Below are positions 4,229 through 25,282 of a DNA stretch of 64,000 nucleotides, piece by piece (the stretch's first letter is position 1; the number at the start of each line of letters is the position of its first letter). The notes beneath the pieces are model-generated. The model was not told where the DNA came from. It worked only from the letters and a program-made list of their open reading frames with translations, and made no database searches. Source of the stretch: Candidatus Bathyarchaeia archaeon (lineage in GTDB: Archaea > Thermoproteota > Bathyarchaeia > Bathyarchaeales > Bathycorpusculaceae); NCBI GenBank assembly GCA_050010755.1, contig JBEKKK010000001.1, positions 1 to 64,000 of the forward strand. Reading direction: 5' to 3'. The position numbers and the translations under genes are program-made.

Positions 4229-4234
4229 TCCCTT

Positions 4235-5665
4235 ATGATTTCGACAACGATAAAATCGATTCAAGACATTATGCGCCAAGATGCTGGCGTAGATGGTGAT
4301 GCACAACGAATATCCCAAATGGTTTGGATGATTTTCCTAAAAGTTTATGATGACAAAGAAAAGGAATGGGAACTAGAGGACGAAAAATACCAATCCGCAA
4401 TTCCAGAAAAATATAGATGGCGTAACTGGGCGTCGAACAAAGAAGGCATAACTGGCGACGACCTTCTCGATTTTATCGGTGAAATGTTCAAAGCCCTAAA
4501 AGCATTGAACGCTTCAAGAGAAGATGATCCTAAAGGCTTCATTGTTAGAGAAGTCTTTGAAGATGCATACAACTATATGAAATCTGGAACTCTGATTAGA
4601 CAAGTCATAAACAAGCTTAACGAGATCGATTTTAACAAGTCGGAAGACAAGCATCTGTTCAATGAGGTCTACGAGAAAATCATATCTGACCTGCAATCAG
4701 CAGGTAACGCTGGAGAATACTATACTCCGAGAGCCGTGACACAGTTCATAGTTGACATTATAAATCCAAAGTTTGGTGAACGAGTACTTGACCCAGCATG
4801 TGGGACTGGTGGGTTCTTAGTCAGTTCCCTTGAGAACATGAAGAAACAAATTACGCGTGATGCCGATCTAGATATGCTACAAAAAAATATTAATGGCGTA
4901 GAGAAAAAGCCTTTGCCCCACTTGCTTTGCACAACGAACATGATTCTTCACGGGATTGAAGTCCCAAACATTAGACACGACAATACTTTGACAAGACCTT
5001 TAGCTGACTATGGGCCTTCTGATATGGTGGATGTCGTTGTCACTAATCCTCCTTTTGGCGGAATAGAAGAACCAGGTATCGAACTCAATTTTCCATCGAC
5101 ATATAGAACCAGAGAAACAGCCGACCTATTTTTGGTGTTAATTATGAAACTGCTTAGAGATGAAGGAAGATGCGGAATGGTTCTCCCTGATGGTTTTTTG
5201 TTCGGTGAAGGAGCAAAGACAAGAATAAAAGAAAAATTGTTACTCGAATTCAATCTTCACACCATTGTAAGGTTGCCCAATGGAGTTTTCAACCCCTATA
5301 CTGGAATAAGAACAAACCTCTTATTCTTTGAGAAGGGTAAACCGACGAAAGAGATTTGGTATTTTGAGCACCCATATCCCGAAGGCTACAAGTCATACAA
5401 TAAAACAAAACCAATACAAATTGAAGAATTTGATCTGGAGAAAGAATGGTGGAATGACAGAGAAAATGACAAGTTCAGTCGATATTGCTGGAAAGTTTCG
5501 ATTGGCGATGTAAAGAAGAGAAATTACAACATGGATATTAACAATCCAAAGGAGCTCAACGAGACTGAGAATATGACTAGTAAGGAGATCATCGAACTAC
5601 TTGAAAAGTCTATGACTGGAAATGCTAAACTCCTTGAACAAATTAGGAAGGAGTTAGGATACTGA
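4235..5665 (+). CDS. hsdM: Type I restriction-modification methyltransferase (m6A)
   Basis: GEYYTPR, DPACGTGGFL and NPPF motifs; N-terminus IQDIMRQDAGVDGDAQR. Confidence 0.96.
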   Translation: MISTTIKSIQDIMRQDAGVDGDAQRISQMVWMIFLKVYDDKEKEWELEDEKYQSAIPEKYRWRNWASNKEGITGDDLLDFIGEMFKALKALNASREDDPKGFIVREVFEDAYNYMKSGTLIRQVINKLNEIDFNKSEDKHLFNEVYEKIISDLQSAGNAGEYYTPRAVTQFIVDIINPKFGERVLDPACGTGGFLVSSLENMKKQITRDADLDMLQKNINGVEKKPLPHLLCTTNMILHGIEVPNIRHDNTLTRPLADYGPSDMVDVVVTNPPFGGIEEPGIELNFPSTYRTRETADLFLVLIMKLLRDEGRCGMVLPDGFLFGEGAKTRIKEKLLLEFNLHTIVRLPNGVFNPYTGIRTNLLFFEKGKPTKEIWYFEHPYPEGYKSYNKTKPIQIEEFDLEKEWWNDRENDKFSRYCWKVSIGDVKKRNYNMDINNPKELNETENMTSKEIIELLEKSMTGNAKLLEQIRKELGY

Positions 5666-7082
5666 AAACCGTTGAATTCTACGGCAAAGTTGATTCTTCT
5701 GTCGCGTTAGCAAAAATCATATTCAATCATTTAACAAAGAGGTATCCAGCAAAAAAGATAGGAGATATTGCAGAAACAACTAGGGGGGTACGCCGTCCAG
5801 ATCCGTTAGTCAATATTACGGTGGAAACATTCCATGGATAAAATCAGGGGAATTGAACGATGGTTTGATTTCTGAGTATTCTGAAACGATAACTGAAGAA
5901 GGGTTAAGGAATTCAAGTGCAAAATTGTATCCTAAAGGAACGTTGGTATTAGCGCTTTATGGAGCGACTGTTGGGAAAGTTGGAATTGTTAATTTTGATA
6001 CGGTTTCAAATCAAGCTGTTTGTGCAGTCTTTCCAACTGAGGAAGTCGATAAGAGATACCTGTTTTGGTTTTTACGTCAAAAAAGACTAGACTTTTTACG
6101 AATGAGCTTTGGGGGAGCGCAACCGAATATTAGCCAAGCGGTTGTTAGAAATACGTCATTGCCTGTACCCCCTCTTGGGGTTCAGAAGCAAGTAGTAGCC
6201 ATATTAGATGAATATGAACTGAGCAAGAATCTGCTTGAAACAGAAGTTGTAACTGAAATTAGAGGCAATTTGCATACATATAACATCATAAAAACTGGGT
6301 ACGACAAAATTGTTGAAAATAACTCAACCAACTCAGAGCTCTGTCAAAAACTTCGCCAATCAATTCTCCTAGAAGCAGTCTCGGGAAAACTCGTTCCACA
6401 AGACCCAAAGGATGAGCCAGCGTCAGAACTTTTGAAGAAAATCAAAGTCGAGAAAGAAAAGCTGGTCAGAGAAAAGAAAATCAAGGAGATGGAACTGCAG
6501 CCAATTTCGAAGGAAGAAATTCCTTTGGAATTACCAAAAAGTTGGGAGTGGGTGAGGTTTGGGCAAATAACGATTTGCAGAGATGGAGAGCGAGTACCCG
6601 TATCCGAAGACGAAAGGAAACTAAAAGAAAAAATCTATGATTACTATGGTGCATCAGGGATAATTGATAAAATTGACAGCTATCTTTTTGACAAAGAACT
6701 GCTTTTGATTGGAGAAGACGGCGCCAATCTGGTAAATAGATCCACCCCAATAGCATTCTTGGCAAAAGGGAAATATTGGGTAAACAACCATGCGCATGTT
6801 TTGGACTCAATTGATTTAGATATACTCAGATTCCTAGAAGTCTACATAAACGCAATTGATTTAAGACCATATGTCACTGGCACTGCTCAACCCAAGATGA
6901 ACCAGTCTAAGATGAATTCCATTCTTGTTGCTTTTCCTCCATTAGCTGAACAGATGAGAATTATAAAAAAGGTTGAAGCAATAATGAACCTCTGCGATGA
7001 ATTAGAACAGAAAGTCAAAGAGAACCAAAAAAGCTCCGAATATCTATTGGAAGCAGTTTTGAAAGAGGCTCTCGCATCTTAA
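5662..7082 (+). pseudogene. hsdS: Type I specificity subunit with a 1-nt frameshift at a G6 run (5783-5788)
   Basis: The frame from CTG 5662 (overlapping the hsdM stop) reads ..YPAKKIGDIAETT; the next frame continues GGTPSRSVSQYYGGNIPWIKSGEL into ORF 5853-7082, which has two TRDs and conserved helices. Confidence 0.88.
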
Positions 7083-7152
7083 CAACGTTGATATCAGTGC
7101 GCACACTTGGCGTGCACTAAATGCGACCCAGCGCACGCGCTAATTAGTCCTA

Positions 7153-7413
7153 TTGCATAAGAGGTCCTACAGAGAGGAAAAGTTGAATCAGCCAGACCAA
7201 ATCTCTCTTGATGACTTAAGACATCTTACTATTCCTTTGCCATACCCAGACAAACCTCAGGAATCGCTTTCAATACAAAGTCAAATAGTCGGCTACCTAG
7301 ATACTGTCCAACAGAGAACTGCTGACCTGAAAGGCGCACAAAATGAAACGGATAAGGACATGGACGAGTTGCGCTTCAGTGCTGTGGAGAAGGGGTTGAA
7401 AGGGGAACTATAA
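7153..7413 (+). pseudogene. Orphan C-terminal fragment of a second hsdS
   Basis: LRHLTIPLP...LSIQSQIVGYLD...DELRFSAVEKGLKGEL matches the HsdS C-terminal conserved region; no N-terminal part. Confidence 0.75.
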
Positions 7414-7611
7414 AAATTGTTAGTCAGTAAAAAAGCATTTCAAGTTCGCGCGCACTGCTGAATAAAGAACGTGAGTAAGCGCACATTGAATTGAATAGCA
7501 CATTGGGTTTAGGAACAGAAAGCAGATAGATCGAGCTTTATCCTGGATACATAATTGGTTTATACTGAGAATTTGTAGTAGATGAAGACATATGAGTGAA
7601 GGGGTTCCAAG

Positions 7612-7905
7612 ATGAGACGTTCTAAGCTTGAGATGTATGTTGACATTCTCAAAGTGTTAGCTCATCGCGGACCCTTGAAACCAACGCACATAATGTATAA
7701 AACAAACGTGGCTCTTAGCGTTCTAAGAGAATATCTGGACTTTCTAATCAAACAGAATCTTGTTGAAGAAAGAAATGTAGGGAAAACTAGAACAGTCTTT
7801 GCTATAACTCAAAGAGGCATAACGGTACTAGAGTACTTTAGGGAACTGCAACAAGCATTGCCAATCATTGAAGAAACAAGAAATATGGTTCCGACACCTA
7901 TTTGA
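7612..7905 (+). CDS. Winged-helix transcriptional regulator (archaeal HTH_45/COG3432-like)
   Basis: RRSKLEMYVDIL..LKPTHIMYKTN..YLDFL..FAITQRG. Confidence 0.88.
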   Translation: MRRSKLEMYVDILKVLAHRGPLKPTHIMYKTNVALSVLREYLDFLIKQNLVEERNVGKTRTVFAITQRGITVLEYFRELQQALPIIEETRNMVPTPI

Positions 7906-8300
7906 CTTCATTAGTGCACGCACTAGCCTTAGTAGCGCAGCGCGCGCTTTTTCTTGATTATTTGAGAAGAATGGAAGATAGAGAATTCCAAAATTCACCA
8001 GAATATCATTCATCACAATTAGGAAAACACAGATTTATGGAAAAAATGTTAAAGAATTTTGACCACGAAAAGAAATATACCATTGAATCCATGGAACGCA
8101 AGACTCTTCAACTTAATTAGAAATTCTAAAAAAACTTACGCGTGATCTCTTATTTTCCAAATCGACAATATGAGGTTAAATTGGAAAATGGAACATTAAA
8201 CTCATTAACGATATTGTAAATGCATTACAATTTAGAATCTCATGTTCAACAAACAGCGCGCATCAAATCTCCAATCTATTAAACCTTCTCTGGCACGAGT

Positions 8301-8866
8301 GCGCGCGCTTTGACTATGTGTGGTTTGTTCTGTGTTTTGTTGTGGTTTTGTTAGATGTGGGGGAAGAATGTTCCTGGGACTGCTACGTGGAAGAGGACTC
8401 CGAATATTATGCTCACTATGACGAAGATTATCCATGCCAGTATGGCTATTGCTAGGGCGGCGAGCCAGCCCGTTCTGAAGCTTGCCTTGTAGACCCATAG
8501 CCAGGCTATGAGAGCCAGAATCAGCGCGATTATGTATGCCGTTGAGCCGATTACAGCTCCCAGAAGGTAACCCACTATAAACAATGTGACAGCATAAACT
8601 ATTGGGCCGAACAGCGTGGCAAGCATAGCCTCGCCAAACGTGGCTCTTCCGCCCGTTACTGCTTTGCCGGCTAACCACACGGGTATCGAGACTATAATCC
8701 ACAGAACAATCAAGCCGATTATGGTAACAACCAGACTCGCTAAACTGATATTTCCAATAATCAGATTGCTCAAGCACCACACCATTCAAGCTACATAGAA
8801 GAACGAAGGAGTATTAAACTTGTGTAGCTGCAGCGCCGCAGCAACAGAGCAGCTGCTATGCGCGCG
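8301..8866. repeat. Copy 1 of a ~560-bp diverged direct repeat (gene, promoter and downstream tract)
   Basis: Aligns by eye with 12806-13367; both ends are GCGCGC tracts. Confidence 0.9.
8351..8785 (-). CDS. Small multi-TM membrane protein, copy 1
   Basis: About 4 hydrophobic segments; highly similar to 12852-13274. Confidence 0.85.
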   Translation of the reverse strand: MVWCLSNLIIGNISLASLVVTIIGLIVLWIIVSIPVWLAGKAVTGGRATFGEAMLATLFGPIVYAVTLFIVGYLLGAVIGSTAYIIALILALIAWLWVYKASFRTGWLAALAIAILAWIIFVIVSIIFGVLFHVAVPGTFFPHI

Positions 8867-8931
8867 TTTTATAAAGTGCGCACGCTGAGAATTGAGAGTA
8901 GTGAGCAAGAAAAAGAGGAAAGTGATTCAAG

Positions 8932-9087
8932 TTGGATGAACACGACTATGACGACGATGAGTGGCCAGATGAGGATGAGGAAGAGCCTGAACCGCAAGAA
9001 GAACCTGAACCGGAAGAAGAGCCTGGAACCGCAAAGCGCGCGGGCTCCAATCTGAGATTGGTTTTCCAGTTTCTATATTCTCTCTAG
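8932..9087 (+). CDS. Putative 51-aa very acidic peptide or gene fragment
   Basis: TTG start; MDEHDYDDDEWPDEDEEEPEPQEEPEPEEEPGTAKRAG...; includes about three imperfect 18-bp repeats. Confidence 0.4.
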   Translation: MDEHDYDDDEWPDEDEEEPEPQEEPEPEEEPGTAKRAGSNLRLVFQFLYSL

Positions 9088-9171
9088 CATGCGCGCCGAA
9101 ACCCGCTCAACAGTCTGATACGACCCTTAAATAACTTAAAAGACAAATGATAGTTTGATGGGCGGAGAGCA

Positions 9172-9753
9172 ATGACCGCAGATTATCTTTTCATAGTTAG
9201 ACACGGAGAAACCGAAGCCAACAAAAAAGGAATAGAAGCAGGGCTATTGGATTACCCCCTGACTAAAAAAGGAGTGAAAGAAGCCTCATTCATAGCCAAG
9301 ACTCTTTCGAAAGTGAAGATAAACGCCGTTTACAGCAGCCCCGTGTTCCGCGCCGTCGAGACTGCAAAAATTCTGGCGCGCCCTCACAAATTGAAGGTAA
9401 AAACCCTTGAGGAACTGACAGAAGCGAAGCTCAAACCCAGATTCGTCGGCAAAAAGGGAAGACATCACATATTGACCAACCCTGAAGCATACTCAGAGAC
9501 GGACAACGACCTCCTAGAGCGAACTGGGAAAGCCATCAAAATCATCAAACAGGAAGCAGAAGGGAACGTGATAGTAGTTTCCCATGGCGACGTGATAACT
9601 GCAATGCTTGAGGGTGTGGTCGAAAGAAGGGTTAGCACTGAGAACTACTACGTTCTCCATGCTGAACCTGCAGCCCTGAGCATTGTCGAAATCAAGAGCA
9701 GACCATTCCTGGTCTTGTACAATTATCACCGCAAGATGTTTGCGAATTTCTAA
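9172..9753 (+). CDS. Histidine phosphatase (phosphoglycerate mutase-like)
   Basis: RHGETE, YSSP..RAVETA and VVSHG motifs. Confidence 0.92.
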   Translation: MTADYLFIVRHGETEANKKGIEAGLLDYPLTKKGVKEASFIAKTLSKVKINAVYSSPVFRAVETAKILARPHKLKVKTLEELTEAKLKPRFVGKKGRHHILTNPEAYSETDNDLLERTGKAIKIIKQEAEGNVIVVSHGDVITAMLEGVVERRVSTENYYVLHAEPAALSIVEIKSRPFLVLYNYHRKMFANF

Positions 9754-9880
9754 TTCTAAAATCGAATATTCCAAAGCGCGCGCTCCGTGCAGGTGAACCA
9801 GCTATCAGCAAGAAAGAACACAATCGCGTCAGAAGCAAACTGTACGCGCGCGCACGCATATATCGACGGCTGTTCTTGGA

Positions 9881-10393
9881 TTAGAAAAACTTCTTGACGA
9901 CCCAATCTAGGTGATAGAGATAGTCTTCCTCTCTGGGAACGTATGTCGGACTTACGAGAGCCGCTCTTGCCGTTATATCGTCTTTTGAAATTTTGAATTC
10001 TCTGATGCAGGTTTCAATGTCTTGGATATCTCTTTGATTTAGTCTTCCAATTTTCGTTACAACTATGTCGACAGGATGCAGAGCCTTCAACAATATGTGG
10101 CTGTACTCTTTTATCTTGATGCTTTTGTCCAGATAGTCACCAGGCAAGGATTGACAGAAAACGTACCCGTCGGCCCATCGGTGTACTCTAAAGCCTGGCG
10201 GATTATTCTTGAGGGCTCGTTCAAATTCGGGCAAGTCACTGCTGGGAATCGTAAAATCAATATCAACTGTTGATGGTTTCAGATCAAGCAGAGTCATTGC
10301 TGTTCCGCCGACGGCTACAAGAGTAACTTTTCTTGTGAGATCACCATTGAAGACATCTAAGAATTCAAGTAACGCGCTCTTGTCACACGGCAT
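9881..10393 (-). CDS. DUF6036-like nucleotidyltransferase
   Basis: VGGTAM..STVDIDF NTase motif and K..R...RD..D C-terminal motif. Confidence 0.82.
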   Translation of the reverse strand: MPCDKSALLEFLDVFNGDLTRKVTLVAVGGTAMTLLDLKPSTVDIDFTIPSSDLPEFERALKNNPPGFRVHRWADGYVFCQSLPGDYLDKSIKIKEYSHILLKALHPVDIVVTKIGRLNQRDIQDIETCIREFKISKDDITARAALVSPTYVPREEDYLYHLDWVVKKFF

Positions 10394-11435
10394 TGTATAG
10401 CCTCATCTTTTGCAGGATGCTTTCTTTGTCAGCAGGTATTTCCTCTTGTTCGAATGTTTCTAGCAAGTCTATTGTTTCAGCAGTTTCCCGTGTTGGTTTG
10501 ATGGCGTACAAGATTTTCAGCAGGCCGATTAGTTTTCCAGATGCCTCGAACTTCTGGCTTAAGAATGCCAATACGTTGCTTTTGAAGCTGCTTTTCGCGA
10601 GGATTATAGGTATGGCTTCCATCAATCTAGCGTCTTCTCGAAGCAGTATTGCGGTTATTATGTATTCAATACAGAATTTCTTTCCCTGCGACAACTGAAG
10701 ACCGAATTCTCTGTACCCGAATCTATAAAGATTGTAGGTCAGGTCTAAATCGGAAAAGTCAGCAGGCTTTGTTTCCGTTTTAATGCTCCTAATTTCTGTT
10801 TTTTCTGCGACCTGCTTGATTTCGCTCCAAAAAGCTTGGGGACAGAAAAAGATGATCTTTTCGCTTAGAGCTTCTCTGAGAGGATTAATCTCGTCTGACA
10901 TTATTAGATCGTAAAAATCATCTCTGTCTATGATAAGACTGTCAATTTTCAGGTTATACTTTTTCTGCATTTTCAGCATTTGTCTGTAAAGTTGAAGCGT
11001 CTCATCATGATACTCTGGTGTTTTCTGGAGTAGAAAGAGCAATTCTGTCTTGTTGAGTTTGATGTTTTTTGTTGGATCTATGGAACTGACTGATCTTATT
11101 ATGCATGTATCATTGAAGAACTTGTCGATTTCGGTTAGGAATAACAATTGATCGCTTCTTTTTGTCAGGAAGTTCCTCTTTTTCTCTATTTCCATTTCTG
11201 CTAGTGTGTCGATCAGTAGATAGTTTGGAAAGTTCAATTTGATATTGGAGGATCGCCCTATGAGGTCTAGGCTGAGTAATCCTTCTTTCTTCAGTTCCTG
11301 AATTTTCTGATAAATGTTTGCGTAATGTGCAGTGCCGTATTTTTCTCTAATTCCGTTAGTCAACTGATTAATTGATAGAGAATCGCCCAGGTTAGAGGAT
11401 ATCGTATTCAGGATTCGAAGTGTAGGTGTATCCAT
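10383..11435 (-). CDS. wHTH-containing protein coupled to the nucleotidyltransferase (putative antitoxin or regulator)
   Basis: N-terminal SINQLT...YANIYQKIQEL..GLL..IGRS winged helix; overlaps the downstream gene by 11 nt. Confidence 0.7.
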   Translation of the reverse strand: MDTPTLRILNTISSNLGDSLSINQLTNGIREKYGTAHYANIYQKIQELKKEGLLSLDLIGRSSNIKLNFPNYLLIDTLAEMEIEKKRNFLTKRSDQLLFLTEIDKFFNDTCIIRSVSSIDPTKNIKLNKTELLFLLQKTPEYHDETLQLYRQMLKMQKKYNLKIDSLIIDRDDFYDLIMSDEINPLREALSEKIIFFCPQAFWSEIKQVAEKTEIRSIKTETKPADFSDLDLTYNLYRFGYREFGLQLSQGKKFCIEYIITAILLREDARLMEAIPIILAKSSFKSNVLAFLSQKFEASGKLIGLLKILYAIKPTRETAETIDLLETFEQEEIPADKESILQKMRLYNAV

Positions 11436-11479
11436 TATTGTTCGCCTTCACATTATAGTCGATTCACCATATATTCAAA

Positions 11480-11499
11480 TTACTATAATATTATAGTAA
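11480..11499. promoter_or_regulatory. Perfect 20-bp palindrome, likely operator of the wHTH/NTase operon
   Basis: TTACTATAATATTATAGTAA, with extra half-sites at 11452-11459 and 11504-11511. Confidence 0.7.
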
Positions 11500-11622
11500 A
11501 CATACTATAATAAAAATCTTCTGCCCATCATCTACAATTCCAATCTTGACTGCCATGCTCTTCAGAAAGCGGAAGTAGTAACGTGTGCTTTCCTACAAAA
11601 GAGCGTCTGCATCTTAGCATTT

Positions 11623-12333
11623 TTAGGATGTACTTTGTTTTTGAAGAGATATTTCGAGACTTATCTCGTCTTCTAGGATTTCACAACCTCTAAAACTGGA
11701 TTTGGAGACGAAATCTTGGATCTCGCTTTTGCTGTAAGCTGATCTCAGCAGCATACGCCGAAATATCATTTTGGTAAAGAATGAATCAAACCTGTTCAGC
11801 TTCATGCCACGTATGTACTCGTTGATGCCTGCCTTAGAGGCATCCTTACGCAAATCAATGATCAGGGCCTTACCTCCAGTCTTCAAAACCCTGAATATTT
11901 CGTCGAGCACTCTCAGGGGTTCTGGAAAATTCTTGAAAGCAGAGGTGCAGATTACGAAATCGAAAATGCCAGCGGAGAAAGGCATATAGGCTGCATCGCC
12001 CTGTCGAAATTCGATCTGCACTCCTGCCGCTCTGGCTTTCTCTTTTGCAATATTCACAAACGTCTTGCTGATGTCCAGTCCCACAATTCTGTAGTTGCCA
12101 AGCTTTGCTAGCTCGACAGATAAGTAGCCAGGACCTGACGCGACTTCGAGCACACTACTGCCCGCTTCTATCCTGTCTCTTGCCATCTTCGCCCATGATA
12201 CGTATTGTTCTACACTCTTCCGTTGGATTCTTGAATACCATCTGGCGACAAGTCCCTCCATCGCGATGCCCTTATACGGTTTCCTTCCCGGGGGCGGAAG
12301 ATTGTCTGTCGTAAAAGTGTTCCTCCTATTCAT
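11623..12333 (-). CDS. Class I SAM-dependent methyltransferase
   Basis: VLEVASGPG, GLDIS, GDA and FD.V motifs. Confidence 0.92.
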   Translation of the reverse strand: MNRRNTFTTDNLPPPGRKPYKGIAMEGLVARWYSRIQRKSVEQYVSWAKMARDRIEAGSSVLEVASGPGYLSVELAKLGNYRIVGLDISKTFVNIAKEKARAAGVQIEFRQGDAAYMPFSAGIFDFVICTSAFKNFPEPLRVLDEIFRVLKTGGKALIIDLRKDASKAGINEYIRGMKLNRFDSFFTKMIFRRMLLRSAYSKSEIQDFVSKSSFRGCEILEDEISLEISLQKQSTS

Positions 12334-12404
12334 CCGGTCTCTACAATATGTGCACTTTCAATTTTGTTCTTCAAGAAAGTGTGACTGTCACGCACGAGAC
12401 ATCA

Positions 12405-12644
12405 CTATCTTTGTTGCTCCAATATTCTCAGTCTCTCAGTTACAAAGTTATGAACCCTTTTTCTCTCCTCGTAGCTAACGTTCCAGTTGGCGAGGATGTT
12501 GAGCATCTCAGTGACGCTTCTCACGGAGAATGCCTTTCCCTTGTGAATAGTTTTTCCTCTCAGGTCCACCTCGTCCTGCAGCATGAAGAGAATATCGCGG
12601 CTGCCAAGCTTCTTTCCAATGGAAACGCACACAGCGCCCAGCAT
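12405..12644 (-). CDS. Hypothetical protein (may extend upstream to a CTG start)
   Basis: Protein-like ORF in the same orientation as its neighbours; no motif recognised. Confidence 0.4.
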   Translation of the reverse strand: MLGAVCVSIGKKLGSRDILFMLQDEVDLRGKTIHKGKAFSVRSVTEMLNILANWNVSYEERKRVHNFVTERLRILEQQR

Positions 12645-12805
12645 TTTTCCCTCGCCATTCTGAACATCCGTACAGTTAGATCTAGAATTATCAGCCTGAT
12701 TCAGCCTATAACACCCTACTTCACCCTAATAGATGAGTGAAGATTTAAACGTTACCTTCAGCACATCTCTCTTTTCTCATGGCCCTAATGCTCAAGAGTA
12801 CAAAA

Positions 12806-13367
12806 GCGCGCGCTACATGCGCAGTCTGTTCAGTGTTTTGTTGTGGTTTTTCTAGATGTGGGGGAAGAATGTTCCGGGGACTGCTACGTGGAAGAGGGCT
12901 CCGAATATGATGCTTACTATGACGAAGATTATCCATGCCAGTATGGCTATTGCCAGGGCGCGGAGCCAGCCCGTTCCAAAGCTTGCCTTATAAATCCCTA
13001 TCCAAACTAGGAGGGCCAAAATCAGCGCGATTGTGTATGCCGTTGAGCCGATTAGCGCTCCCAGCAGGTAACCCACCGTGATCAATGTGACGGCGTAAAC
13101 TATTGGGCCGAACAGCGTGGCAAGCATAGCCTCGCCAAACGTGGCTAATCCGCCCGTTACTGTCTTGGCAGCTAACCATACGGGTATTGAGACTATTATC
13201 CACAGAACTAGCAAGCCGATTATGGTTACAAGCAGACTCGTTAAACTCATGTTTCCAATAATCAGATTGCTCAATCACTTCGCCTACTAAACTACATAGA
13301 AGTGCAAATAAGTATTAAACTTGCGAAACTGCAGCGTCACAACAACAAAGCAGCTGCCATGCGCGCA
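12806..13367. repeat. Copy 2 of the ~560-bp direct repeat
   Basis: Aligns with 8301-8866; begins and ends at GCGCGC tracts. Confidence 0.9.
12852..13274 (-). CDS. Small multi-TM membrane protein, copy 2
   Basis: Paralog of 8351-8785 with the same C-terminus, HVAVPGTFFPHI. Confidence 0.85.
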   Translation of the reverse strand: MSNLIIGNMSLTSLLVTIIGLLVLWIIVSIPVWLAAKTVTGGLATFGEAMLATLFGPIVYAVTLITVGYLLGALIGSTAYTIALILALLVWIGIYKASFGTGWLRALAIAILAWIIFVIVSIIFGALFHVAVPGTFFPHI

Positions 13368-13479
13368 CATAATAGAGTGATTTTTCAGAAAACGGAAATA
13401 AAGGGGGCTCCTAGGCCAAACTTCCCAAAAGTTATATTTCTTGGTTCTTAGATGTTGGCACAAGGGGAATAGAACTAAA

Positions 13480-14322
13480 ATGTCGACGCGTGATGCTAGC
13501 TTGATTTTTGAACTCGGTTTCGTCTTGGCAATTTATGCTGCCTTCATACTGCCTTACCTGCTCTTCAAAGGCGTCTTCAACACGGTTTTCCTACAATACA
13601 TTGCCATTTCGACTCTCACATCGGCAACTGTCCTTCTCCTCTACGCGGCGTACACGAAGAAACAAGTCATGACATTCGTCCTAGTCTTCACGATAATCGG
13701 CGTGCTGCTGTTCTCAATGTCAACAATCATCACTCAATCATACATCACCACGGAAACATATCCTTCAACATATTCATCCAACTGGGGCAACAACACCGTC
13801 ACACTTGGCCCCCTAGAATCAGAAAACATCAGCATAATCCAATATCCCGCCTACATGTTTCCATTAAACGCCAACGGAACACAGCTTCAATTTACGTTTT
13901 CAAACAACGGGAGCGTAAGATTCATGCTTTACTATACAGGCGAGGAAGATGAGCAGCTCGCGTTAAACGAATCTTTCGGCAGCGGTGGATGGCCAATCGG
14001 ATTCAACTGGTTTAACATATACTGGACGCCGATAGGGCCGATAGACGAATTTGATTCTCAACCCATAAGCAGAGAAGGTTACTACCATCAAATTTCGGTC
14101 GGGCTGCAGAACCTTGAAAACTCGCCAGAACAAGTCAACCTCAACATTACCTACTTCGACTTCACCAACACAGCACAACAAAACATCACTAATTATCATC
14201 CAGTAATCGACTACCGATACGGATACTTAGGAATAGGGCTAATCATTGCAGCAATGACCATTGAGCTAGGAACCTGGAAAAGGCGACCATACAACAAACA
14301 GAGTGCGACCGCGTCCACCTAG
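13480..14322 (+). CDS. Membrane protein with extracellular domain
   Basis: Three N-terminal TM segments, an N/T/S-rich domain with N-x-S/T sequons and a C-terminal TM. Confidence 0.75.
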   Translation: MSTRDASLIFELGFVLAIYAAFILPYLLFKGVFNTVFLQYIAISTLTSATVLLLYAAYTKKQVMTFVLVFTIIGVLLFSMSTIITQSYITTETYPSTYSSNWGNNTVTLGPLESENISIIQYPAYMFPLNANGTQLQFTFSNNGSVRFMLYYTGEEDEQLALNESFGSGGWPIGFNWFNIYWTPIGPIDEFDSQPISREGYYHQISVGLQNLENSPEQVNLNITYFDFTNTAQQNITNYHPVIDYRYGYLGIGLIIAAMTIELGTWKRRPYNKQSATAST

Positions 14323-14547
14323 TGCACATGTTAACATGCCTATTCATAGATTTGCTCTTCAGAAAAGGAAATGGGGAGTTAATCTAATCACGCCCCATTC
14401 AAACAGGAGTGATTTCGAATCTGTCTCTTTTATCACACACAGAGAATTATATGTTGAGATCATCTAATGCATTGTGAAAAATGTGGTGTCGGAAGGTTAA
14501 AGTATGCGACCCAAGTGTAAATTTTATTCTTTAAAAATAATATCGAG

Positions 14548-15045
14548 GTGGATAAGGTGCCTCTAGAAGATTATCTTTTGCCTAATGAACAGATCCGTTA
14601 TCAAAGCGAGTTTGACGTATTTTACTCCGGTAAACCATACACAGTTATTCTTACAGACTTAAGATTAGTTCTTTATTCACGAAGGGGATTACTTATCAAG
14701 AATGACGATGTGGTGACTGAGGCAATAAGAGATATTCAAGGAATAAAATACAGAGAAATGGGTTTGATAGTAAAGAGCGGTGAACTTATTATCTCTGGAA
14801 AGACGAGAATGCATTTTGGCGGCTCCAAAGATTCCATGAAGGCTTTGTACCAGAGACTTTTGCCATTCTTGTCACCTGAATATCGAACTGCGCTATACCA
14901 ACAACCTCCAAGCCCTTCATATGCGCCTATTCCTCCCTCTTCATATGTGCCAGCTCCTCCCTCTTCGATGAACTGCCCAAACTGTGGTATTGAACTACCG
15001 TCAAACGCAAGGTTTTGCCACAACTGTGGAAAACAGCTTTCTTGA
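14548..15045 (+). CDS. Bacterial PH-like domain plus zinc-ribbon protein
   Basis: VILTDLRLVLY..GLL PH-like segment, Pro-rich linker, CPNCG..FCHNCG. Confidence 0.8.
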   Translation: MDKVPLEDYLLPNEQIRYQSEFDVFYSGKPYTVILTDLRLVLYSRRGLLIKNDDVVTEAIRDIQGIKYREMGLIVKSGELIISGKTRMHFGGSKDSMKALYQRLLPFLSPEYRTALYQQPPSPSYAPIPPSSYVPAPPSSMNCPNCGIELPSNARFCHNCGKQLS

Positions 15046-15067
15046 ACGAATAGTGGGCACATGACAA

Positions 15068-15580
15068 ATGCAGAAAAAACAGTTTCGAGGGTATAACTGC
15101 GACCTAACAGACTTGCAAAAGTCTGTAGAACTCTATTTTGTTGGAAGAGGTTTCAGAGTAACCAACTTTCATATGGGAAGCCTCTATTTAACACAAGCAT
15201 TCAAGAATGGACTCGGTTCTAAGAGATTGAATATTCAAATTTCAGGCACGCCCGCAGATTTTGAAGTGACAATCGGATTGGGAGAAAGAATCGATAGCAT
15301 GAAAAATCATCAACCATCATTCGAGGACATTTCAATAGCAGACAGAACTCTTATGGGAGAACTGAGATTGGAAAGCAACTTTTGGAACCATTTTACAACC
15401 AGAGCGGAACTGAGGAGAAATTGCGCTGGCATGGCTAAAACATCGATTCCGCCTTCACCTCCTATTTACAGAGAACGAGAGACGATAAGAGAAATCGAAG
15501 TCATATATTGCAGATACTGCGGAACAAAGAACAATGCCAGGTTAACTTCTTGCACTCACTGTGGTGCAAGATTGTACTGA
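15068..15580 (+). CDS. Zinc-ribbon domain protein
   Basis: C-terminal CRYCG..CTHCGA. Confidence 0.78.
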   Translation: MQKKQFRGYNCDLTDLQKSVELYFVGRGFRVTNFHMGSLYLTQAFKNGLGSKRLNIQISGTPADFEVTIGLGERIDSMKNHQPSFEDISIADRTLMGELRLESNFWNHFTTRAELRRNCAGMAKTSIPPSPPIYRERETIREIEVIYCRYCGTKNNARLTSCTHCGARLY

Positions 15581-15688
15581 ACTAGCACGCGCTTTCCCAG
15601 GAGCTTGGCACGGTGCCTGTAGCTTCGGCGATAGTGCCATCGTTACAGACAACCTTTACACAGTAAAACACAGTGAAATCAGCGTGCA

Positions 15689-16078
15689 TTAGCTTTCTGT
15701 TTTGGATGCCCATTCCTGCAGCGTCTTAATCGGATATTCTTGCCCTACAAGATGCTGGAGCGCAGAGTTGTTTCCTACACTCTCTATCCTGGCATTCTTA
15801 TCCTTAAAGAGAGATCCAATAAGATACCTCTTCTGAACGACCGCCATCTCGACCGAGATTACACCCATGCAGTTTGGACAACGAAAATAATTCCGCGAGT
15901 TATTTCTCCACCCTAACTTGACACTCAAGTTGTTCCCCAACTCCCAGAGCGAGGGTTTCCTGCACAAAGGACAAGTCGGAAAAGCCTTATCAACCCAATT
16001 TGTCACACCGCCACCAAAAACCATGTGTTCATATCTCTTAAACTCCATCTTCGAGACTTGATTAGAATCATCACTCAT
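15689..16078 (-). CDS. Hypothetical Zn-finger protein
   Basis: CPLC..CPNC; GGAG-type RBS upstream. Confidence 0.72.
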   Translation of the reverse strand: MSDDSNQVSKMEFKRYEHMVFGGGVTNWVDKAFPTCPLCRKPSLWELGNNLSVKLGWRNNSRNYFRCPNCMGVISVEMAVVQKRYLIGSLFKDKNARIESVGNNSALQHLVGQEYPIKTLQEWASKTES

Positions 16079-16357
16079 TCTCCACCCTCCGTTTGTTCTC
16101 TATCACTGTGCGGATTAAAGATTTCTCTATGCCCGTCCACGCGCGCAACTGCATGTGTGTGCTAGAGATAACAGGTTCGAAGAAAGGACAGGAGAATGGG
16201 AAGAAAGGAATGAGCAAGGTAACTAGCTAGTTTGAGTTCGAGAAAAAACCTTACCGCATAAACACAGAGACGACAGAGCGCGCGATATATTGCTTTATTC
16301 GATATATTGCCTAGTTTGTAATATCTTTCAATAGTTTAGAGAAGCTAATGTTCTAAC

Positions 16358-16678
16358 ATGAAAGTGCGCCTATGGGTCATCACATTAGCAATCATTCTTG
16401 GCGCATTGAACGTATTAGATGTTCTCACAACTAAAGCTGCTCTGAGCATGGGCTGTGAAGAAGGTAACGGGTTGGCTATTGCCCTGTTCACGACATTCGG
16501 TTTCACTATTGGCATGTTCATTAAATTCGGCGCTGTCACCATTGTTGGCTGCTCGACCATTTACTCGTATCATTCTGACTGCAGAGCACTCCGCATTATT
16601 CTGACGACTTGTCTCGTCTACGCAGTTTGTCTATACACCGCAGTTGTGTGCAATAACATCATTAACATATTGCGATGA
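16358..16678 (+). CDS. DUF5658-like membrane protein
   Basis: LNVLDVLTT..G..EGN..K..VV.NN pattern with three TM segments. Confidence 0.75.
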   Translation: MKVRLWVITLAIILGALNVLDVLTTKAALSMGCEEGNGLAIALFTTFGFTIGMFIKFGAVTIVGCSTIYSYHSDCRALRIILTTCLVYAVCLYTAVVCNNIINILR

Positions 16679-16692
16679 CAGCGCGGGACCCG

Positions 16693-16827
16693 CTAATTAT
16701 CCGCCTTTCCTTCCTTTTTTAGCATTGGCAAGTGCTTTTCGCGGTCTTCCTTATTGTGCCAAAACTTTCCGTCTTCCCAGAAGAACGCATCATGGATTCT
16801 CAGGAGCAAGGGTTTCTTTTCCGTCAT
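16693..16827 (-). CDS. Putative 44-aa small protein (not in the ORF track)
   Basis: MTEKKPLLLRIHDAFFWEDGKFWHNKEDREKHLPMLKKEGKADN; TATA-like TTAATATAA and G-rich RBS upstream. Confidence 0.45.
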   Translation of the reverse strand: MTEKKPLLLRIHDAFFWEDGKFWHNKEDREKHLPMLKKEGKADN

Positions 16828-17030
16828 TTCCAATCGCCCCATTATATTAAGACTTACGAAGCCATACTAATAAACCCTCGGTTTCCTGTCTCCTCGCCAA
16901 GTAGATTAGCCCGGCCCAATTTGTGAGGTTACATACGTTCTAGCGCGCGCTAAATAGCTTAGTCTTTAATACCTATTTCAAACAGCTTCCCCTCGCAGGT
17001 GAGAAGCATGCAAGATAAGGAGGGAACATC

Positions 17031-17789
17031 TTGTTCAATATTAATAGGCTTGAAGAGAATTGGCGCGATCTAGTCCAAATCTACCCTGATACAGTAGAAC
17101 TGCAAGGAGCAACTGTGGCTCATTGTCTCCAAACACCAGTAATTCTCTTCAATCACGTCACACACTTTAATATAACCGAAGACAGGTCTGAGATTTTTCT
17201 CAAGACGATCATCAATCATTTCTCATCAAGAAAACTTCCCTTTGCCTGTTTCCGAGTTTCTCCTTTAACACCACCATCATTCACTTCACTCCTTGAACAC
17301 CACGGGTTCGAGAAAGAGTTAGAACAGTCGATCATGACATTTGAGGGAAAACCATCGAACAACAGCCCCCAACAAAACGTAACAATTAAGGAGATAAAAG
17401 AAGACAGCATCGACGTTTTCGACAGACTGATGATCACAAATTTCGAAATGCCACCGGAATGGAAGGAGATTATGGACAAATTACTCGTTGATTTCATGCG
17501 AAAAGGAAACAGAAACTACGTGGCCTATGCAGACGGGCAACCTGTTGGAACAGTCAGCTTGTTTTCAAAAAGCAGAACGGGATGCATCCTAAACGTTTCA
17601 ACACTTAAAGAATACAGGAACCGCGGAATAGGAACAGAGCTGACGAATCACGCTCTTTCTGACTCATTCAAAGAAGGAAACAACCTCCACACACTGCAAA
17701 CCCACAAAGGAGGAGACGCAGAGAAGCTTTACCGAAAAATCGGGTTCGAAGTCGACCATACAGTCTCCTTTCTAGTCAAAAAGCTTTGA
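17031..17789 (+). CDS. GNAT acetyltransferase
   Basis: VSTLKEYRNRGIG and LYRKIGF. Confidence 0.9.
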   Translation: MFNINRLEENWRDLVQIYPDTVELQGATVAHCLQTPVILFNHVTHFNITEDRSEIFLKTIINHFSSRKLPFACFRVSPLTPPSFTSLLEHHGFEKELEQSIMTFEGKPSNNSPQQNVTIKEIKEDSIDVFDRLMITNFEMPPEWKEIMDKLLVDFMRKGNRNYVAYADGQPVGTVSLFSKSRTGCILNVSTLKEYRNRGIGTELTNHALSDSFKEGNNLHTLQTHKGGDAEKLYRKIGFEVDHTVSFLVKKL

Positions 17790-17910
17790 CACCAAACCGC
17801 GTGCATACTGCTCGCTGTACGGCGATTCTGTATTTTGCACAATTTTTAATACGCGCGCGCCAGCGGCATGCTTTATAGTGTAAGTCGACGATAGAGAGCA
17901 TCTGGTTTGA

Positions 17911-18327
17911 TTGAGCTTCAAAATAGTGAGATACCGGTCGGAATTTCAACGTGCGGTCGTTGATTTATGGAGTGAGTGTAACCTGATCGTTCCGCAGAAT
18001 GATCCTGTTGTTGATATTCAGAAAAAGGTCGATTATCAGCCTGAATTATTCTTTGTTGCATTGTTGGATGGTCACGTTGTAGGTTCTGTTATGGCTGGCT
18101 ATGAAGGGCATCGAGGCTGGTTGAATTATGTGGCTGTTCTTCCCGACTATCAGGATCAAGGATATGGCAGGAAGCTTGTAGAAAAAGCCGTTGCTGAACT
18201 GAAGAAAATAGGTTGTTTGAAGGTTAATCTGGAGGTTCGAAAAAGCAATAGTTCTGTGATTGATTTCTACTTGCATCTTGGGTTCAAAGACAACAAGATC
18301 GTCGGTTTAGGCAAGAGGCTTGGATGA
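17911..18327 (+). CDS. GNAT acetyltransferase (YpeA-like)
   Basis: VGSVMAGYEGHRGWLNY and YQDQGYG. Confidence 0.92.
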   Translation: MSFKIVRYRSEFQRAVVDLWSECNLIVPQNDPVVDIQKKVDYQPELFFVALLDGHVVGSVMAGYEGHRGWLNYVAVLPDYQDQGYGRKLVEKAVAELKKIGCLKVNLEVRKSNSSVIDFYLHLGFKDNKIVGLGKRLG

Positions 18328-18474
18328 AAGTATTGAGCGCTCCTTAGTGGAAGTCCTGGCGACCTGTAATCTAGCGCGCTCTAATTTACTAATGCCAACA
18401 TTATGCACCATTTTTCCAACAATCCATCTTGATAGACAGAACCAAAAGCTCCAGCATACATAATCAGGTGTGGG

Positions 18475-20823: not shown

Positions 20824-20826
20824 GCC

Positions 20827-25265: not shown

Positions 25266-25282
25266 GGCAAGCGCGCGCTAGG

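What the first reader, a model, noticed from the sequence alone, without database searches (positions are those of the whole stretch)
8301..13367. Duplicated gene unit whose two ends coincide with the GCGCGC motif: candidate cassette system
Seen: 8301-8866 and 12806-13367 are diverged direct copies of a complete unit (promoter with TTTAATA box, membrane-protein gene, downstream tract). In both copies the similarity starts at a GCGCGCGC and stops at a GCGCGC, with unrelated sequence outside. Many other single genes in 7-30 kb are also bracketed by a motif on each side, often with their own TATA box, in either orientation. Inference: the motif may define mobile or shufflable cassettes. A palindromic core would permit both orientations, unlike integron attC arrays, whose cassettes are mostly co-oriented and promoterless. 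No recombinase is visible in the window.
Basis: partly seen in the sequence, partly recalled or inferred. Interest (0 to 1): 0.8.

Follow-up and report, generated by a model that had tools for sequence, protein, structure and literature searches.

The report
GC-palindrome marks shuffled archaeal gene modules
In a peat-soil archaeon, a tiny repeated DNA word (GCGCGC) sits exactly where gene-sized pieces of DNA have been copied, moved, gained or lost, which points to a simple and so far undescribed way of shuffling genes.

Summary
8301-8878 and 12806-13379 are direct copies (85.6% over 578 bp) of a complete unit on the minus strand: TATA box, 140-aa membrane-protein gene, 3' tract. Similarity starts at GCGCGCGC and ends at GCGCGC; outside it falls to 36-39%.

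The genome is a Bathyarchaeia genome. A(GC)3-5T is a lineage-specific iterated palindrome: 921 GCGCGC hits, about two thirds in the 17% non-coding DNA. It is abundant in three genera of the family and nearly absent from most others.

Homology blocks end on it. The distance from block ends to the nearest run peaks sharply at 0±2 nt, for paralogues and for comparison with a congener, and runs almost never lie inside aligned DNA. A ~90%-identical metagenome contig is a mosaic of five G000 places with 9 of 12 block ends at runs. It lacks window 8886-9857, an indel flanked by a GCGCACGC direct repeat.

But about 70% of relocated-segment ends carry no run. No matching recombinase, Y1 transposase or C5 methylase was found, and no excision joints were seen.

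Verdict: the "shufflable module boundary" reading is partly supported. The runs are junction marks of gene-unit rearrangement. The enzyme and the direction of causality are unknown.

The parts
8301..8308 (.). GCGCGCGC run: boundary of copy A on the gene's 3' side
   Evidence: homology to copy B, to relatives and to L126 stops here
8309..8350 (-). 3' untranslated tract of copy A (C/A-rich on the minus strand), 30/42 identical to copy B
8351..8785 (-). copy A gene: small membrane protein (144-aa ORF from ATG 8785). The start conserved across relatives is TTG at 8773-8771. The ATG used by copy B and by relatives is ATA here.
   Evidence: no Pfam or NCBIfam family
8812..8818 (-). TTTAATA TATA box of copy A, conserved in copy B and in 12 relatives
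8819..8859 (-). conserved upstream region with GCAGCTGC-type palindromes (candidate operator), conserved in relatives
8860..8865 (.). GCGCGC: boundary of copy A on the promoter side; decayed to ACACGC in L126
12806..12813 (.). GCGCGCGC run: 3'-side boundary of copy B
12852..13274 (-). copy B gene (140 aa), 86% aa identity to copy A, dN/dS 0.29
13313..13319 (-). TTTAATA TATA box of copy B
13361..13366 (.). GCGCGC: promoter-side boundary of copy B
8876..8885 (.). GTGCGCACGC, decayed run; left copy of the direct repeat that flanks the 972-bp indel against L126
8886..9857 (.). 972 bp present in the window and absent in L126. It holds the small acidic ORF unit, a 48-nt spacer, the His_Phos_1 gene unit and a 61-nt spacer. 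It ends in GCGCGCGCACGC (9846-9857).
   Evidence: L126 2701-3281 = 8303-8885; 3272-4970 = 9848-11546, with a 10-nt overlap
8256..8261 (.). GCGCGC; with 8301-8308 it brackets a 39-nt spacer that recurs at 89% in G002:C11
23876..24413 (.). another motif-bounded single-gene unit (ORF 23944-24360, +). Its homology to G003:C4 runs 23883-24402, that is from motif to motif, and G003 has no run there.
17853..18379 (.). motif-bounded GNAT gene unit (17911-18327, +); homology to G003:C7 starts 12 nt after the left run
8866..9041 (+). small acidic ORF unit; homologous block in G002:C3 (87.6%) is bounded by runs at both ends in both genomes
   Evidence: loose ends

Best explanation
The duplicated unit is one instance of a genome-wide pattern in this Bathyarchaeia genus. 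Short alternating runs, A(GC)3-5T, sit at the joints between gene-sized DNA segments of different history.

I read the runs as the places where segments are joined. Promoter-bearing single-gene modules are copied, inserted, deleted or relocated with their ends at such runs. The palindrome lets a module sit in either orientation.

The most likely mechanism (inferred, not shown) is illegitimate recombination by host repair at these very stable self-complementary microhomologies. Each event leaves or renews a run, and the runs later decay by transitions.

Shown: the coincidence of homology ends with runs; the mosaic structure of close relatives; the turnover and lineage restriction of the runs.

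Inferred: that the runs cause or are made by the joining, and by what enzyme.
For: 1. The unit.
- Copies A and B share both ends.
- At least 7 relatives' loci (82.8-86.8% identical) align only from 8311/8314 to 8857/8860. They have no run at either end, yet stay alignable with each other beyond it.
- The four motif-bounded copies (A, B and two in L126) form one clade, 100/100. They have four different left flanks.

2. The close relative L126 (82.8-94% identical over the six blocks).
- Adjacent blocks map to C3:57 kb, C1:8.3 kb, C1:9.8 kb, C1:945 kb and C1:1314 kb.
- 9 of 12 block ends lie within 10 bp of a perfect run in one or both genomes (run lists).
- Window 8886-9857 is an indel flanked by a GCGCACGC direct repeat.

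3. G002 compared with G000.
- G002 has a 1,250-bp two-gene insertion against G000. Its right edge is GCGCGCGC where G000 has GCGCGTGC. Internal runs separate the genes.

4. Statistics over 387 kb of G002 against G000.
- Ends of small relocated blocks at a run: 12 of 40. Ends of large syntenic blocks: 3 of 34.
- Against the expectation from the same intergenic region: 14 observed vs 7.7 expected (P 0.009) and 7 vs 2.3 (P 0.004). For paralogue ends: 32 vs 9.1 (0 of 20,000 simulations).
- The signed distance from a block end to the nearest run peaks at -2..+2 nt: 14 of 280 ends between genomes and 34 of 525 paralogue ends. It falls 5- to 10-fold (and more for the paralogue ends) by 20-60 nt.
- Only 2 ends (between genomes) and 6 ends (paralogues) have a run 3-100 nt inside the block.

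5. Turnover.
- In the syntenic block C1:1.13-1.32 Mb, aligned non-coding DNA (8.9 kb) holds 1 run. Unaligned non-coding DNA (21.1 kb) holds 26.
- Of 12 collinear short gaps, only 1 has a run in both genomes.
- The run at 61304 sits in a 16-nt indel that G004 and G003 lack.

6. Sequence specificity.
- G-phase runs far outnumber C-phase runs in non-coding DNA: 106 vs 18 at length 8, and 15 vs 0 at length 10. This is not generic Z-DNA-prone sequence.
- Perfect GCGCGC has 574 non-coding copies, against 56-155 for each one-mismatch variant.

7. The joints are real.
- Contigs of runs from two other studies (X5, X7) cross 7940, 8256, 8301, 9036, 9091, 12806 and 13361 without a difference.
Against: - Most breakpoints carry no perfect run: 28 of 40 ends of small relocated blocks.
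- 4 of 10 clean G000/G002 indels that I read have none.
- The 16-kb indel 41380-57506 has none. One inversion uses a 20-nt inverted repeat instead.
- Many indels have a run on one side only.
- No enzyme fits. There are three tyrosine recombinase hits, none in the window. The island integrase does not track the motif.
- Ku is present in G002-G004 and in motif-poor genomes, but was not found in G000, G018 or G033.
- No serine recombinase, Y1 transposase, TnpB or C5 methylase was found.
- No target-duplication signature extends beyond the core, over 386 neighbouring run pairs.
- Block ends at 78-88% identity are fuzzy. ORF masks are crude. Paralogue families are not independent.
- Only 6 kb of one close relative and 387 kb of one congener were compared.
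- Runs could arise only in unconstrained DNA, which by definition borders aligned DNA. The sharp 0 +/- 2 nt peak argues against this but does not exclude it.
Confidence: 0.45

Rival explanations
1. A dedicated system. An unrecognised nuclease, recombinase or transposase acts on A(GC)nT. Because the word is its own inverted repeat, any DNA between two runs has 'terminal inverted repeats' and can be excised, inverted or inserted as a cassette. A GCGCGC-cutting endonuclease plus ligation would give 6-, 8- and 10-mers by in-register, slipped and filled-in joining.
For: - Strict G-phase and an A...T flank preference point to sequence recognition, not structure.
- The 8-mer is as common as the 6-mer: 106 vs 110 in non-coding DNA.
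- The distribution across genera is patchy and all-or-none at equal G+C. G000-G004, G018 and G033 are rich; G006 at 48.8% G+C is poor.
- In many junctions the run is present only in the rearranged genome.
- Units carry runs at both ends, whereas motif-free donor-like relatives carry none.
Against: - No candidate gene was found. DDE transposases and restriction enzymes were not searched.
- The self-comparison shows no high-identity multi-copy insertion sequence.
- Often only one side of an indel has a run.
- No extended binding arms flank the core.
Confidence: 0.2
2. Functional punctuation. The run is a binding or boundary signal (insulator, termination aid, regulator site) at the outer edge of transcription units. 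Homology ends there only because everything beyond the last functional element is free to diverge or be deleted.
For: - Density by region is convergent 1.91 > tandem 1.2 > divergent 0.83 > coding 0.16 runs per kb.
- Runs peak 0-40 nt after stop codons and are depleted 0-60 nt before starts.
- A run lies 2 nt upstream of the TATA-like box of the divergent neighbour in both copies.
Against: - Only 240 of 2,023 ORFs have a run within 100 nt of the stop, and no T-tract or other partner signal exists.
- Runs are almost absent from intergenic DNA conserved between congeners: 1 run in 8.9 kb.
- They are not kept at orthologous variable gaps: 1 shared of 7.
- The same gene unit works without any run in relatives.
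- Most of the family lacks the motif.
Confidence: 0.15
3. Mutation or repair bias, as proposed for the cyanobacterial palindrome HIP1. A lineage-specific repair or modification activity converts near-matches into (GC)n in unconstrained DNA. The link with breakpoints is a by-product, because unconstrained DNA borders aligned DNA.
For: - The perfect word far exceeds its one-mismatch neighbours.
- Turnover is rapid and the motif is lineage-restricted.
- Runs occur almost only in unaligned intergenic DNA.
Against: - The sharp peak at 0 +/- 2 nt from block ends is not a flat spread over the unaligned stretch.
- The same ends recur in four copies of the unit and in comparisons with more than 7 relatives.
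- An indel is flanked by a direct repeat.
- No C5 methylase was found.
Confidence: 0.15
4. An ordinary old segmental duplication whose ends happen to lie near a common intergenic word.
For: Runs are locally dense in 7-27 kb: 34 of the window's 47 hits.
Against: - Only 2.5% of intergenic bases lie within 8 bp of a run.
- Both ends coincide in both copies.
- The same ends recur against relatives and L126.
Confidence: 0.03

Closest known systems
PeSL regulatory cassettes of T4-type phages (Arbiol et al. 2010, PMC2839356, abstract and outline read; PMC4122927, search listing only)
   Same: A short repeated motif brackets small, mostly non-essential genes in hyperplastic regions. Insertions, deletions and replacements between close relatives have their ends at the motif. 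The modules carry their own expression signals.
   Different: A PeSL is a composite of a strong promoter and a terminator stem-loop, and recombines by homology between copies. Here the word is only 6-10 bp with no stem-loop or promoter of its own, lies in a cellular archaeal chromosome, and is too short for homologous recombination. Mini-circles were shown for PeSLs and not here.
Integron gene cassettes with attC, including archaeal integrons (10.1101/2022.02.06.479319 / PMC9668308, search listing and start of abstract only)
   Same: Arrays of single-gene modules separated by a recombination site. Accessory, often unknown functions. Modules differ between relatives.
   Different: No IntI next to the array. 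No attC (55-140-nt imperfect inverted repeat). Modules have their own TATA boxes and lie in both orientations. The motif is spread over the whole genome.
HIP1 (GCGATCGC), the highly iterated palindrome of cyanobacteria (PMC5861425, PMC4390886, PMC13756078: listing and start of abstracts; PMC4390886 also searched for four terms, none found)
   Same: A lineage-specific, hyper-abundant short GC-rich palindrome of unknown function whose perfect form greatly exceeds its neighbours. That HIP1 sits at deletion borders is my recollection and was not checked here.
   Different: As I recall (no call checked it), HIP1 is abundant inside genes as well, and it is tied to orphan methylases. Here the word is about 10-fold denser outside genes, is absent from conserved intergenic DNA, and no C5 methylase was found.
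REP/BIME elements with RAYT transposases (recalled, no paper read)
   Same: Extragenic palindromic repeats, enriched after genes and between convergent genes, in hundreds of copies.
   Different: REPs are 20-40-nt hairpins with a conserved head and a cognate Y1 transposase. Here there is no extended consensus and no PF01797 hit.

Membership tests
Integron / gene cassette array | Integron integrase (tyrosine recombinase) adjacent to the array | tested here: not met
   No PF00589 hit in C1:1-64000; three hits elsewhere. One hit (C1:1348836-1350131) borders another motif-dense island, but it does not co-vary with the motif. The IntI-specific insert was not tested.
Integron / gene cassette array | attC site (imperfect inverted repeat of about 55-140 nt) after each cassette | tested here: not met
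   The inverted-repeat scan of 7000-29900 gives only weak, non-recurrent pairs. Run flanks have no consensus beyond A/T at +/-1.
Integron / gene cassette array | Mostly co-oriented, promoterless cassettes read from Pc | tested here: not met
   Units lie on both strands. The duplicated unit has its own conserved TATA box.
REP / RAYT | Y1 (HUH) transposase of the RAYT type in the genome | tested here: not met
   PF01797: 0 hits in G000, which is 93% complete
REP / RAYT | 20-40-nt imperfect palindrome able to form a hairpin | tested here: not met
   Runs are 6-11 nt, too short for a hairpin, with no flanking consensus
HIP-type iterated palindrome | Perfect palindrome many-fold over-represented against its one-mismatch neighbours and against shuffles | tested here: met
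   47 vs 11.2 expected in the window; 574 non-coding copies vs 56-155 for neighbours
HIP-type iterated palindrome | Cognate orphan DNA methyltransferase(s) | tested here: inconclusive
   PF00145 was not found in any motif-rich genome searched. N4/N6 methylases exist but their specificity is unknown.
PeSL-like modular shuffling | Indels and replacements between close relatives end at the repeated motif | tested here: met
   This holds for a minority to about half of events.
PeSL-like modular shuffling | Motif is a promoter plus a terminator stem-loop | tested here: not met
   No positional TATA, T-tract or stem partner around runs
PeSL-like modular shuffling | Circular motif-to-motif excision products | not testable with these tools
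   Only assembled contigs of the runs were available. They drop rare variants.

The most novel reading that the evidence does not exclude
A minimal, orientation-free gene-cassette system in archaeal chromosomes. A still unidentified enzyme, present in three Bathyarchaeia genera, cuts and joins DNA at A(GC)3-5T. Any promoter-bearing gene lying between two runs is then a mobilisable module, and each joining event writes a new run. This would be an integron-like engine of gene gain and loss without an integrase or attC.
Probability: 0.2. Interest if true: 0.9.

Novelty: new variant of a known kind. Interest (0 to 1): 0.7.

Why it matters
Bathyarchaeia are abundant, uncultured carbon cyclers. How their accessory genes turn over is unknown.

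Here a 6-10-bp word marks the seams of a mosaic genome with nucleotide precision. That gives a direct, testable handle on gene-module gain, loss and duplication: strain-level breakpoints, circles, a motif-specific enzyme.

Alternating GC runs are generally avoided in prokaryotes (PMC4060949, abstract and passages read). A lineage that accumulates about 900 of them outside genes therefore needs an explanation.

If an enzyme is behind it, it would be a new kind of recombination system and a possible tool. If host repair alone is responsible, it shows how a short palindrome can organise genome plasticity.

Tried and rejected
- Excision or deletion joints. Logan contigs of four peat runs (X5, X7, X9, X10) laid on 7001-27000 gave no joints and no indels. 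Contigs cannot show rare forms, so this says nothing either way. Raw reads were not available.
- Extending the informative metagenome contig L126. The record is not held by the genome search and list_loci gave no handle, so only 6,032 bases could be compared.
- General terminator. Rejected: 240 of 2,023 ORFs have a run after the stop, with no T-tract.
- Generic Z-DNA tract. Rejected by the phase bias.
- MITE-like family between paired runs. 17 of 89 spacers have a second short copy, but there is no single family.
- Target-site duplication beyond the core. The flanks of 386 neighbouring run pairs match no better than random pairs.
- Enzyme correlates. The island integrase, Ku and C5 methylase do not track motif-rich genomes. 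PF00239, PF01797 and PF07282 were not found in G000. DDE transposases and restriction-enzyme families were not searched.
- An inversion near C1:940-942 kb, first taken as motif-linked, uses a 20-nt inverted repeat.
- Function of the membrane protein. No Pfam or NCBIfam family. No structure prediction or atlas search was run.
- Literature. The term sets 'GCGCGC, archaea, intergenic' and 'Bathyarchae*, palindrom*, intergenic' returned 7 papers each. None of their titles or abstract starts describes this motif. This covers only the held library.
- Earlier scan notes. Nothing on this genome or its look-alikes.

Full report
WHAT IS THERE

The window is the first 64 kb of contig C1 of a 2.19-Mb, 8-contig genome (47.7% G+C). 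Relatives of its proteins are named Bathyarchaeia or Bathyarchaeota MAGs in the genome contigs record titles. Near-identical DNA is held by peat and wetland metagenome runs of several studies.

Positions 8301-8878 and 12806-13379 are direct repeats, 85.64% identical over 578 bp. Each holds one gene on the minus strand: 8351-8785, a 144-aa ORF, and 12852-13274, 140 aa. The product is a small hydrophobic protein with no Pfam or NCBIfam family. The two proteins are 86% identical. dS is 0.25 and dN/dS is 0.29, so both are kept by selection.

Upstream on the minus strand lie a conserved TTTAATA box (8812-8818, 13313-13319) and a conserved GCAGCTGC-rich stretch. Downstream lies a 42-nt C/A-rich tract.

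In the alignment with flanks, similarity starts at GCGCGCGCT and ends at ATGCGCGC. Non-coding parts inside the unit are 71-74% identical. The 100 nt outside are 36-39% identical. About 13 nt past the promoter-side motif still match 8/13; this is a TATA-like box of the divergent neighbour.

THE MOTIF IS A GENOME-WIDE, LINEAGE-SPECIFIC, INTERGENIC PALINDROME

- Excess. GCGCGC occurs 47 times in the window against 11.2 +/- 3.3 in shuffles, and 921 times in the genome.
- Location. On C1, 431 of 661 hits are not fully inside ORFs, although my crude ORF mask covers 83% of the contig. Six other G+C-only palindromic hexamers have 81-267 hits with 7-16% outside ORFs.
- Density. Runs per kb are 1.91 in convergent, 1.2 in tandem and 0.83 in divergent intergenic regions, and 0.16 in ORFs. 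There is a peak 0-40 nt after stops and a gap 0-60 nt before starts.
- Not a general terminator. Only 240 of 2,023 ORFs have a run within 100 nt of the stop. The flanks show nothing but A at -1 (59%) and T at +1 (56%).
- Sequence-specific. In non-coding DNA, G-phase runs beat C-phase runs 110:51 at length 6, 106:18 at length 8 and 15:0 at length 10. The 8-mer is as common as the 6-mer.
- Perfect form favoured. Perfect GCGCGC has 574 non-coding copies against 56-155 for any one-mismatch variant. Transition variants are somewhat commoner.
- Lineage distribution. GCGCGCGC counts are 168-646 in the five genomes of the genus, 227 and 439 in two other genera of the family (G018, G033), 30-53 in four genomes, and 0-19 in the remaining 30 of 41 genomes searched.
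- Not a G+C effect. In 100-kb samples, G033 and G018 (41% G+C) also hold the runs outside ORFs: 1.07 and 1.05 per kb against 0.11 and 0.07 inside. In 49 kb of G006, which has the same G+C as G000, it is the reverse: 0.11 against 0.40.
- Background. A published survey finds alternating-GC words generally suppressed in prokaryotes (PMC4060949, abstract and passages).

THE UNIT HAS FIXED ENDS IN EVERY COMPARISON

The protein family is widespread in Bathyarchaeia and Nitrososphaeria: 101 relatives were confirmed and 80 loci kept. 41 of the 80 loci have no run at all in up to 8.4 kb.

At the DNA level, copy A aligns at 82.8-86.8% with L008, L011, L012, L020, L026, L028, L033 and L039. The alignment always runs from 8311-8315 to 8850-8860. 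In the multiple alignment these relatives have no run at either end. They remain alignable with one another beyond both ends, including a second copy of the promoter segment downstream.

The congeners G001, G002 and G004 hold only a 52-54%-identical paralogue; G003 and G033 gave no match at E 1e-10. G000 has that paralogue as well, on C3.

A 2.46-Mb metagenome contig (locus L126, 6,032 bases held) carries one full and one truncated copy. The four motif-bounded copies form one clade with 100/100 support, and A pairs with the full L126 copy. At the 3'-side end the four copies read GCGCGCGC, GCGCGCGC, GGCGCG and CGTGCGC, and all four outer flanks differ. The same two ends have thus been used or kept in acquisition, in duplication and in later flank changes.

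CLOSE RELATIVES ARE MOSAICS JOINED AT RUNS

L126 blocks map as follows:

| L126 block | G000 place | identity |
|---|---|---|
| 146-489 | C1:8301-8645 | 89% |
| 2255-2704 | C3:57464-57014 | 94% |
| 2701-3281 | C1:8303-8885 | 89.5% |
| 3272-4970 | C1:9848-11546 | 92.8% |
| 5239-5325 | C1:944967-945053 | 83% |
| 5329-6004 | C1:1314391-1315065 | 89% |

Using the run lists, 9 of these 12 ends lie within 10 bp of a perfect run in one or both genomes. The three misses are 489, 4970 and 5325.

The window's 8886-9857 holds two gene units and two short spacers, and L126 lacks it. The window has GTGCGCACGC at 8876-8885 and GCGCGCGCACGC at 9846-9857. L126 has a single GCGCGCACGC. This is the signature of a deletion between direct repeats, or of an insertion that duplicated its target.

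G002:C2 carries a 1,250-bp two-gene insertion where G000 has 31 bp. Its right edge is GCGCGCGC against GCGCGTGC in G000, and internal runs separate the genes.

Within the window, blocks shared with congeners map to different contigs and often run from run to run. 23883-24402 (runs at 23876 and 24408) matches G003:C4, which has no run there. 8874-9017 matches G002:C3, with runs at both ends in both genomes. 17872-18327 starts 12 nt after a run, and 25030-25272 ends on one.

Others do not: 10209-11550, 24485-24887 and 27001-27243. The 16-kb segment 41380-57506 also does not. It is missing at this place in G004, G003 and G001, and its left end abuts a tRNA gene.

STATISTICS

I compared 387 kb of G002 (contigs C2 and C3) with G000, keeping 70 best blocks of at least 78% identity and at least 150 bp.

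- Ends within 10 bp of a run in either genome: 15 of 68 at rearrangement junctions (13 of 46 intergenic ones) and 7 of 64 at collinear indels (5 of 39 intergenic). 5.2% of intergenic bases in G002 lie that close to a run.
- By block type: small blocks relocated on both sides, 12 of 40; ends of large syntenic blocks, 3 of 34. By identity: 9 of 28 at 88% or more, 10 of 68 at 83-88%, 5 of 44 at 78-83%.
- Against an expectation drawn from the same intergenic region: 14 observed vs 7.73 expected of 90 ends in G002 coordinates (P 0.009); 7 vs 2.26 of 97 in G000 coordinates (P 0.004); 32 vs 9.12 of 260 unique intergenic ends of G000's own paralogue blocks (0 of 20,000 simulations).
- Earlier, cruder counts agree. 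52 of 436 paralogue ends lie within 12 bp. Of 122 intergenic junction pairs, 7 have a run in both copies and 17 in one.
- The most telling result is the signed distance from a block end to the nearest run. Between genomes, 14 of 280 ends fall at -2..+2 nt (2.8 per nt). The rate then declines to 0.25-0.6 per nt at 21-60 nt, and only 2 ends have a run 3-100 nt inside the block. For paralogues, 34 of 525 ends fall at -2..+2 (6.8 per nt) and 6 have a run inside. Homology stops on the runs and almost never passes through them.

TURNOVER

- In the block of G000 syntenic with G002:C2 (C1:1,130,314-1,322,826), aligned non-coding DNA (8,884 bp) holds 1 run. Unaligned non-coding DNA (21,148 bp) holds 26.
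- In the same block, 1 of 30 intergenic regions spanned by a block has a run, against 16 of 85 not spanned.
- Inside alignments only 2 non-coding runs per direction were found.
- Of 12 collinear short gaps, a run is present in both genomes once, in one genome six times, and in neither five times.
- In a conserved intergenic region, the run at 61304 lies in a 16-nt indel absent from G004 and G003.
- At several junctions the other genome has a decayed form: GCGCGTGC, GCACAC, GCACGC.

Runs are therefore young, are associated with change, and decay by transitions. This speaks against a conserved regulatory site.

WHAT DOES IT

No answer was found.

- G000 has three PF00589 hits, none in the window.
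- One (C1:1348836-1350131) borders another run-dense island that carries TIR-domain and other accessory genes. Its close homologues do not follow the motif, and only its first ~45 codons are widely conserved.
- Serine recombinase, Y1 transposase and TnpB were not found in G000, which is 93% complete.
- C5 methylase was not found in any motif-rich genome.
- Ku is in G002-G004 and in three motif-poor genomes, but was not found in G000, G001, G018 or G033.
- There is no attC-like structure, no target duplication beyond the core, and no MITE-like spacer family.
- DDE transposases and restriction enzymes were not searched.

READING

Best supported, at about 0.45: the runs are the seams at which gene-sized, promoter-bearing modules are joined. 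The duplicated unit is such a module. The likeliest process is illegitimate recombination by host repair at these very stable self-complementary microhomologies.

A dedicated enzyme, the strong cassette reading, is at about 0.2. It fits the strict phase, the 6/8/10-nt lengths and the patchy all-or-none distribution, but has no candidate gene.

Functional punctuation and a HIP1-like mutational bias are at about 0.15 each. They explain the placement, or the excess, but not the nucleotide-sharp coincidence with block ends.

COMPARISON WITH KNOWN SYSTEMS

The closest known analogue in behaviour is the PeSL cassette of T4-type phages (PMC2839356, abstract).

Membership fails for integrons: no IntI at the array, no attC, and mixed orientation with own promoters. 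It fails for REP/RAYT: no Y1 transposase and no hairpin. It holds only in part for HIP-type palindromes and for PeSLs.

LIMITS

- ORF masks are crude.
- Block ends at 78-88% identity are imprecise.
- Paralogue families are not independent.
- One congener (387 kb) and 6 kb of one close relative carry most of the weight.
- Contigs cannot show rare excision products.
- The joints themselves are real: contigs from two other studies cross them without a difference.

Noticed in passing
window 1904-7082: Complete type I restriction-modification operon: HsdR 774 aa, HsdM 476 aa, HsdS 409 aa. It lies directly left of the run-dense region.
   Followed up: no
window 41283-41377 (+), 38682-38786 (-), 41380-57506: Two tRNA genes, 95 and 105 nt long (probably with introns). 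The 16 kb to the right of the first holds Hdr/MvhD-like iron-sulfur flavoproteins, UbiA and polyprenyl synthases, proline dehydrogenase and an MFS transporter. This segment is not at this place in G004, G003 or G001. There is no run at either breakpoint.
   Followed up: partly
window 8170-8255 (+): Apparent remnant of a gene's 5' end (reads ..WNIKLINDIVNAL..). It resembles the start of a gene next to G000 C1:1316740, with ATT in place of the ATG. It is cut off at the run at 8256. This is my own reading; no search was run.
   Followed up: partly
window 8262-8300 and 9043-9090: The short spacers between paired runs are themselves repeated elsewhere. The 39-nt one is 89% identical in G002:C11:73696-73732. 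The 48-nt one is 95% identical over 38 nt at G000 C1:1312305-1312342. Run pairs 40-70 nt apart are about 5-fold enriched.
   Followed up: partly
window 8771-8785: Copy A has ATA where copy B and 12 relatives have the ATG. An upstream TTG and the codons after it are conserved at the DNA level in all, so translation may start there.
   Followed up: no
G000 C1:1348836-1350131 (L119:3836-5134) and C1:1350.6-1374 kb: A 432-aa tyrosine recombinase at the edge of the most run-dense island. The island holds two CAP12/Pycsar-type TIR effector genes, a lipocalin and many unknown genes. Only the first ~45 codons of the recombinase are conserved (65-93%) in many relatives, as expected if they overlap an attachment site.
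   Followed up: partly
G000 C2:1-1106 and 199471-200576: The two ends of contig C2 are inverted copies (91.6% over 1,106 bp), each encoding an integrase-like ORF.
   Followed up: no
G000 C1:958628-960352 (L122:13628-15352): MvaI/BcnI-family restriction endonuclease next to an N4/N6 DNA methylase, inside a run-dense region.
   Followed up: no
window 61165-61211 (-): Rfam eL15 ribosomal-protein leader match (44.5 bits; the family is named for Euryarchaeota) in this Bathyarchaeia genome.
   Followed up: no
G000 C1:940027-940045 and 942125-942143: A 1.5-kb segment is inverted in G002 relative to G000. It is flanked by a ~20-nt inverted repeat (GCACATAACGAGCGTAAAC), not by runs.
   Followed up: partly
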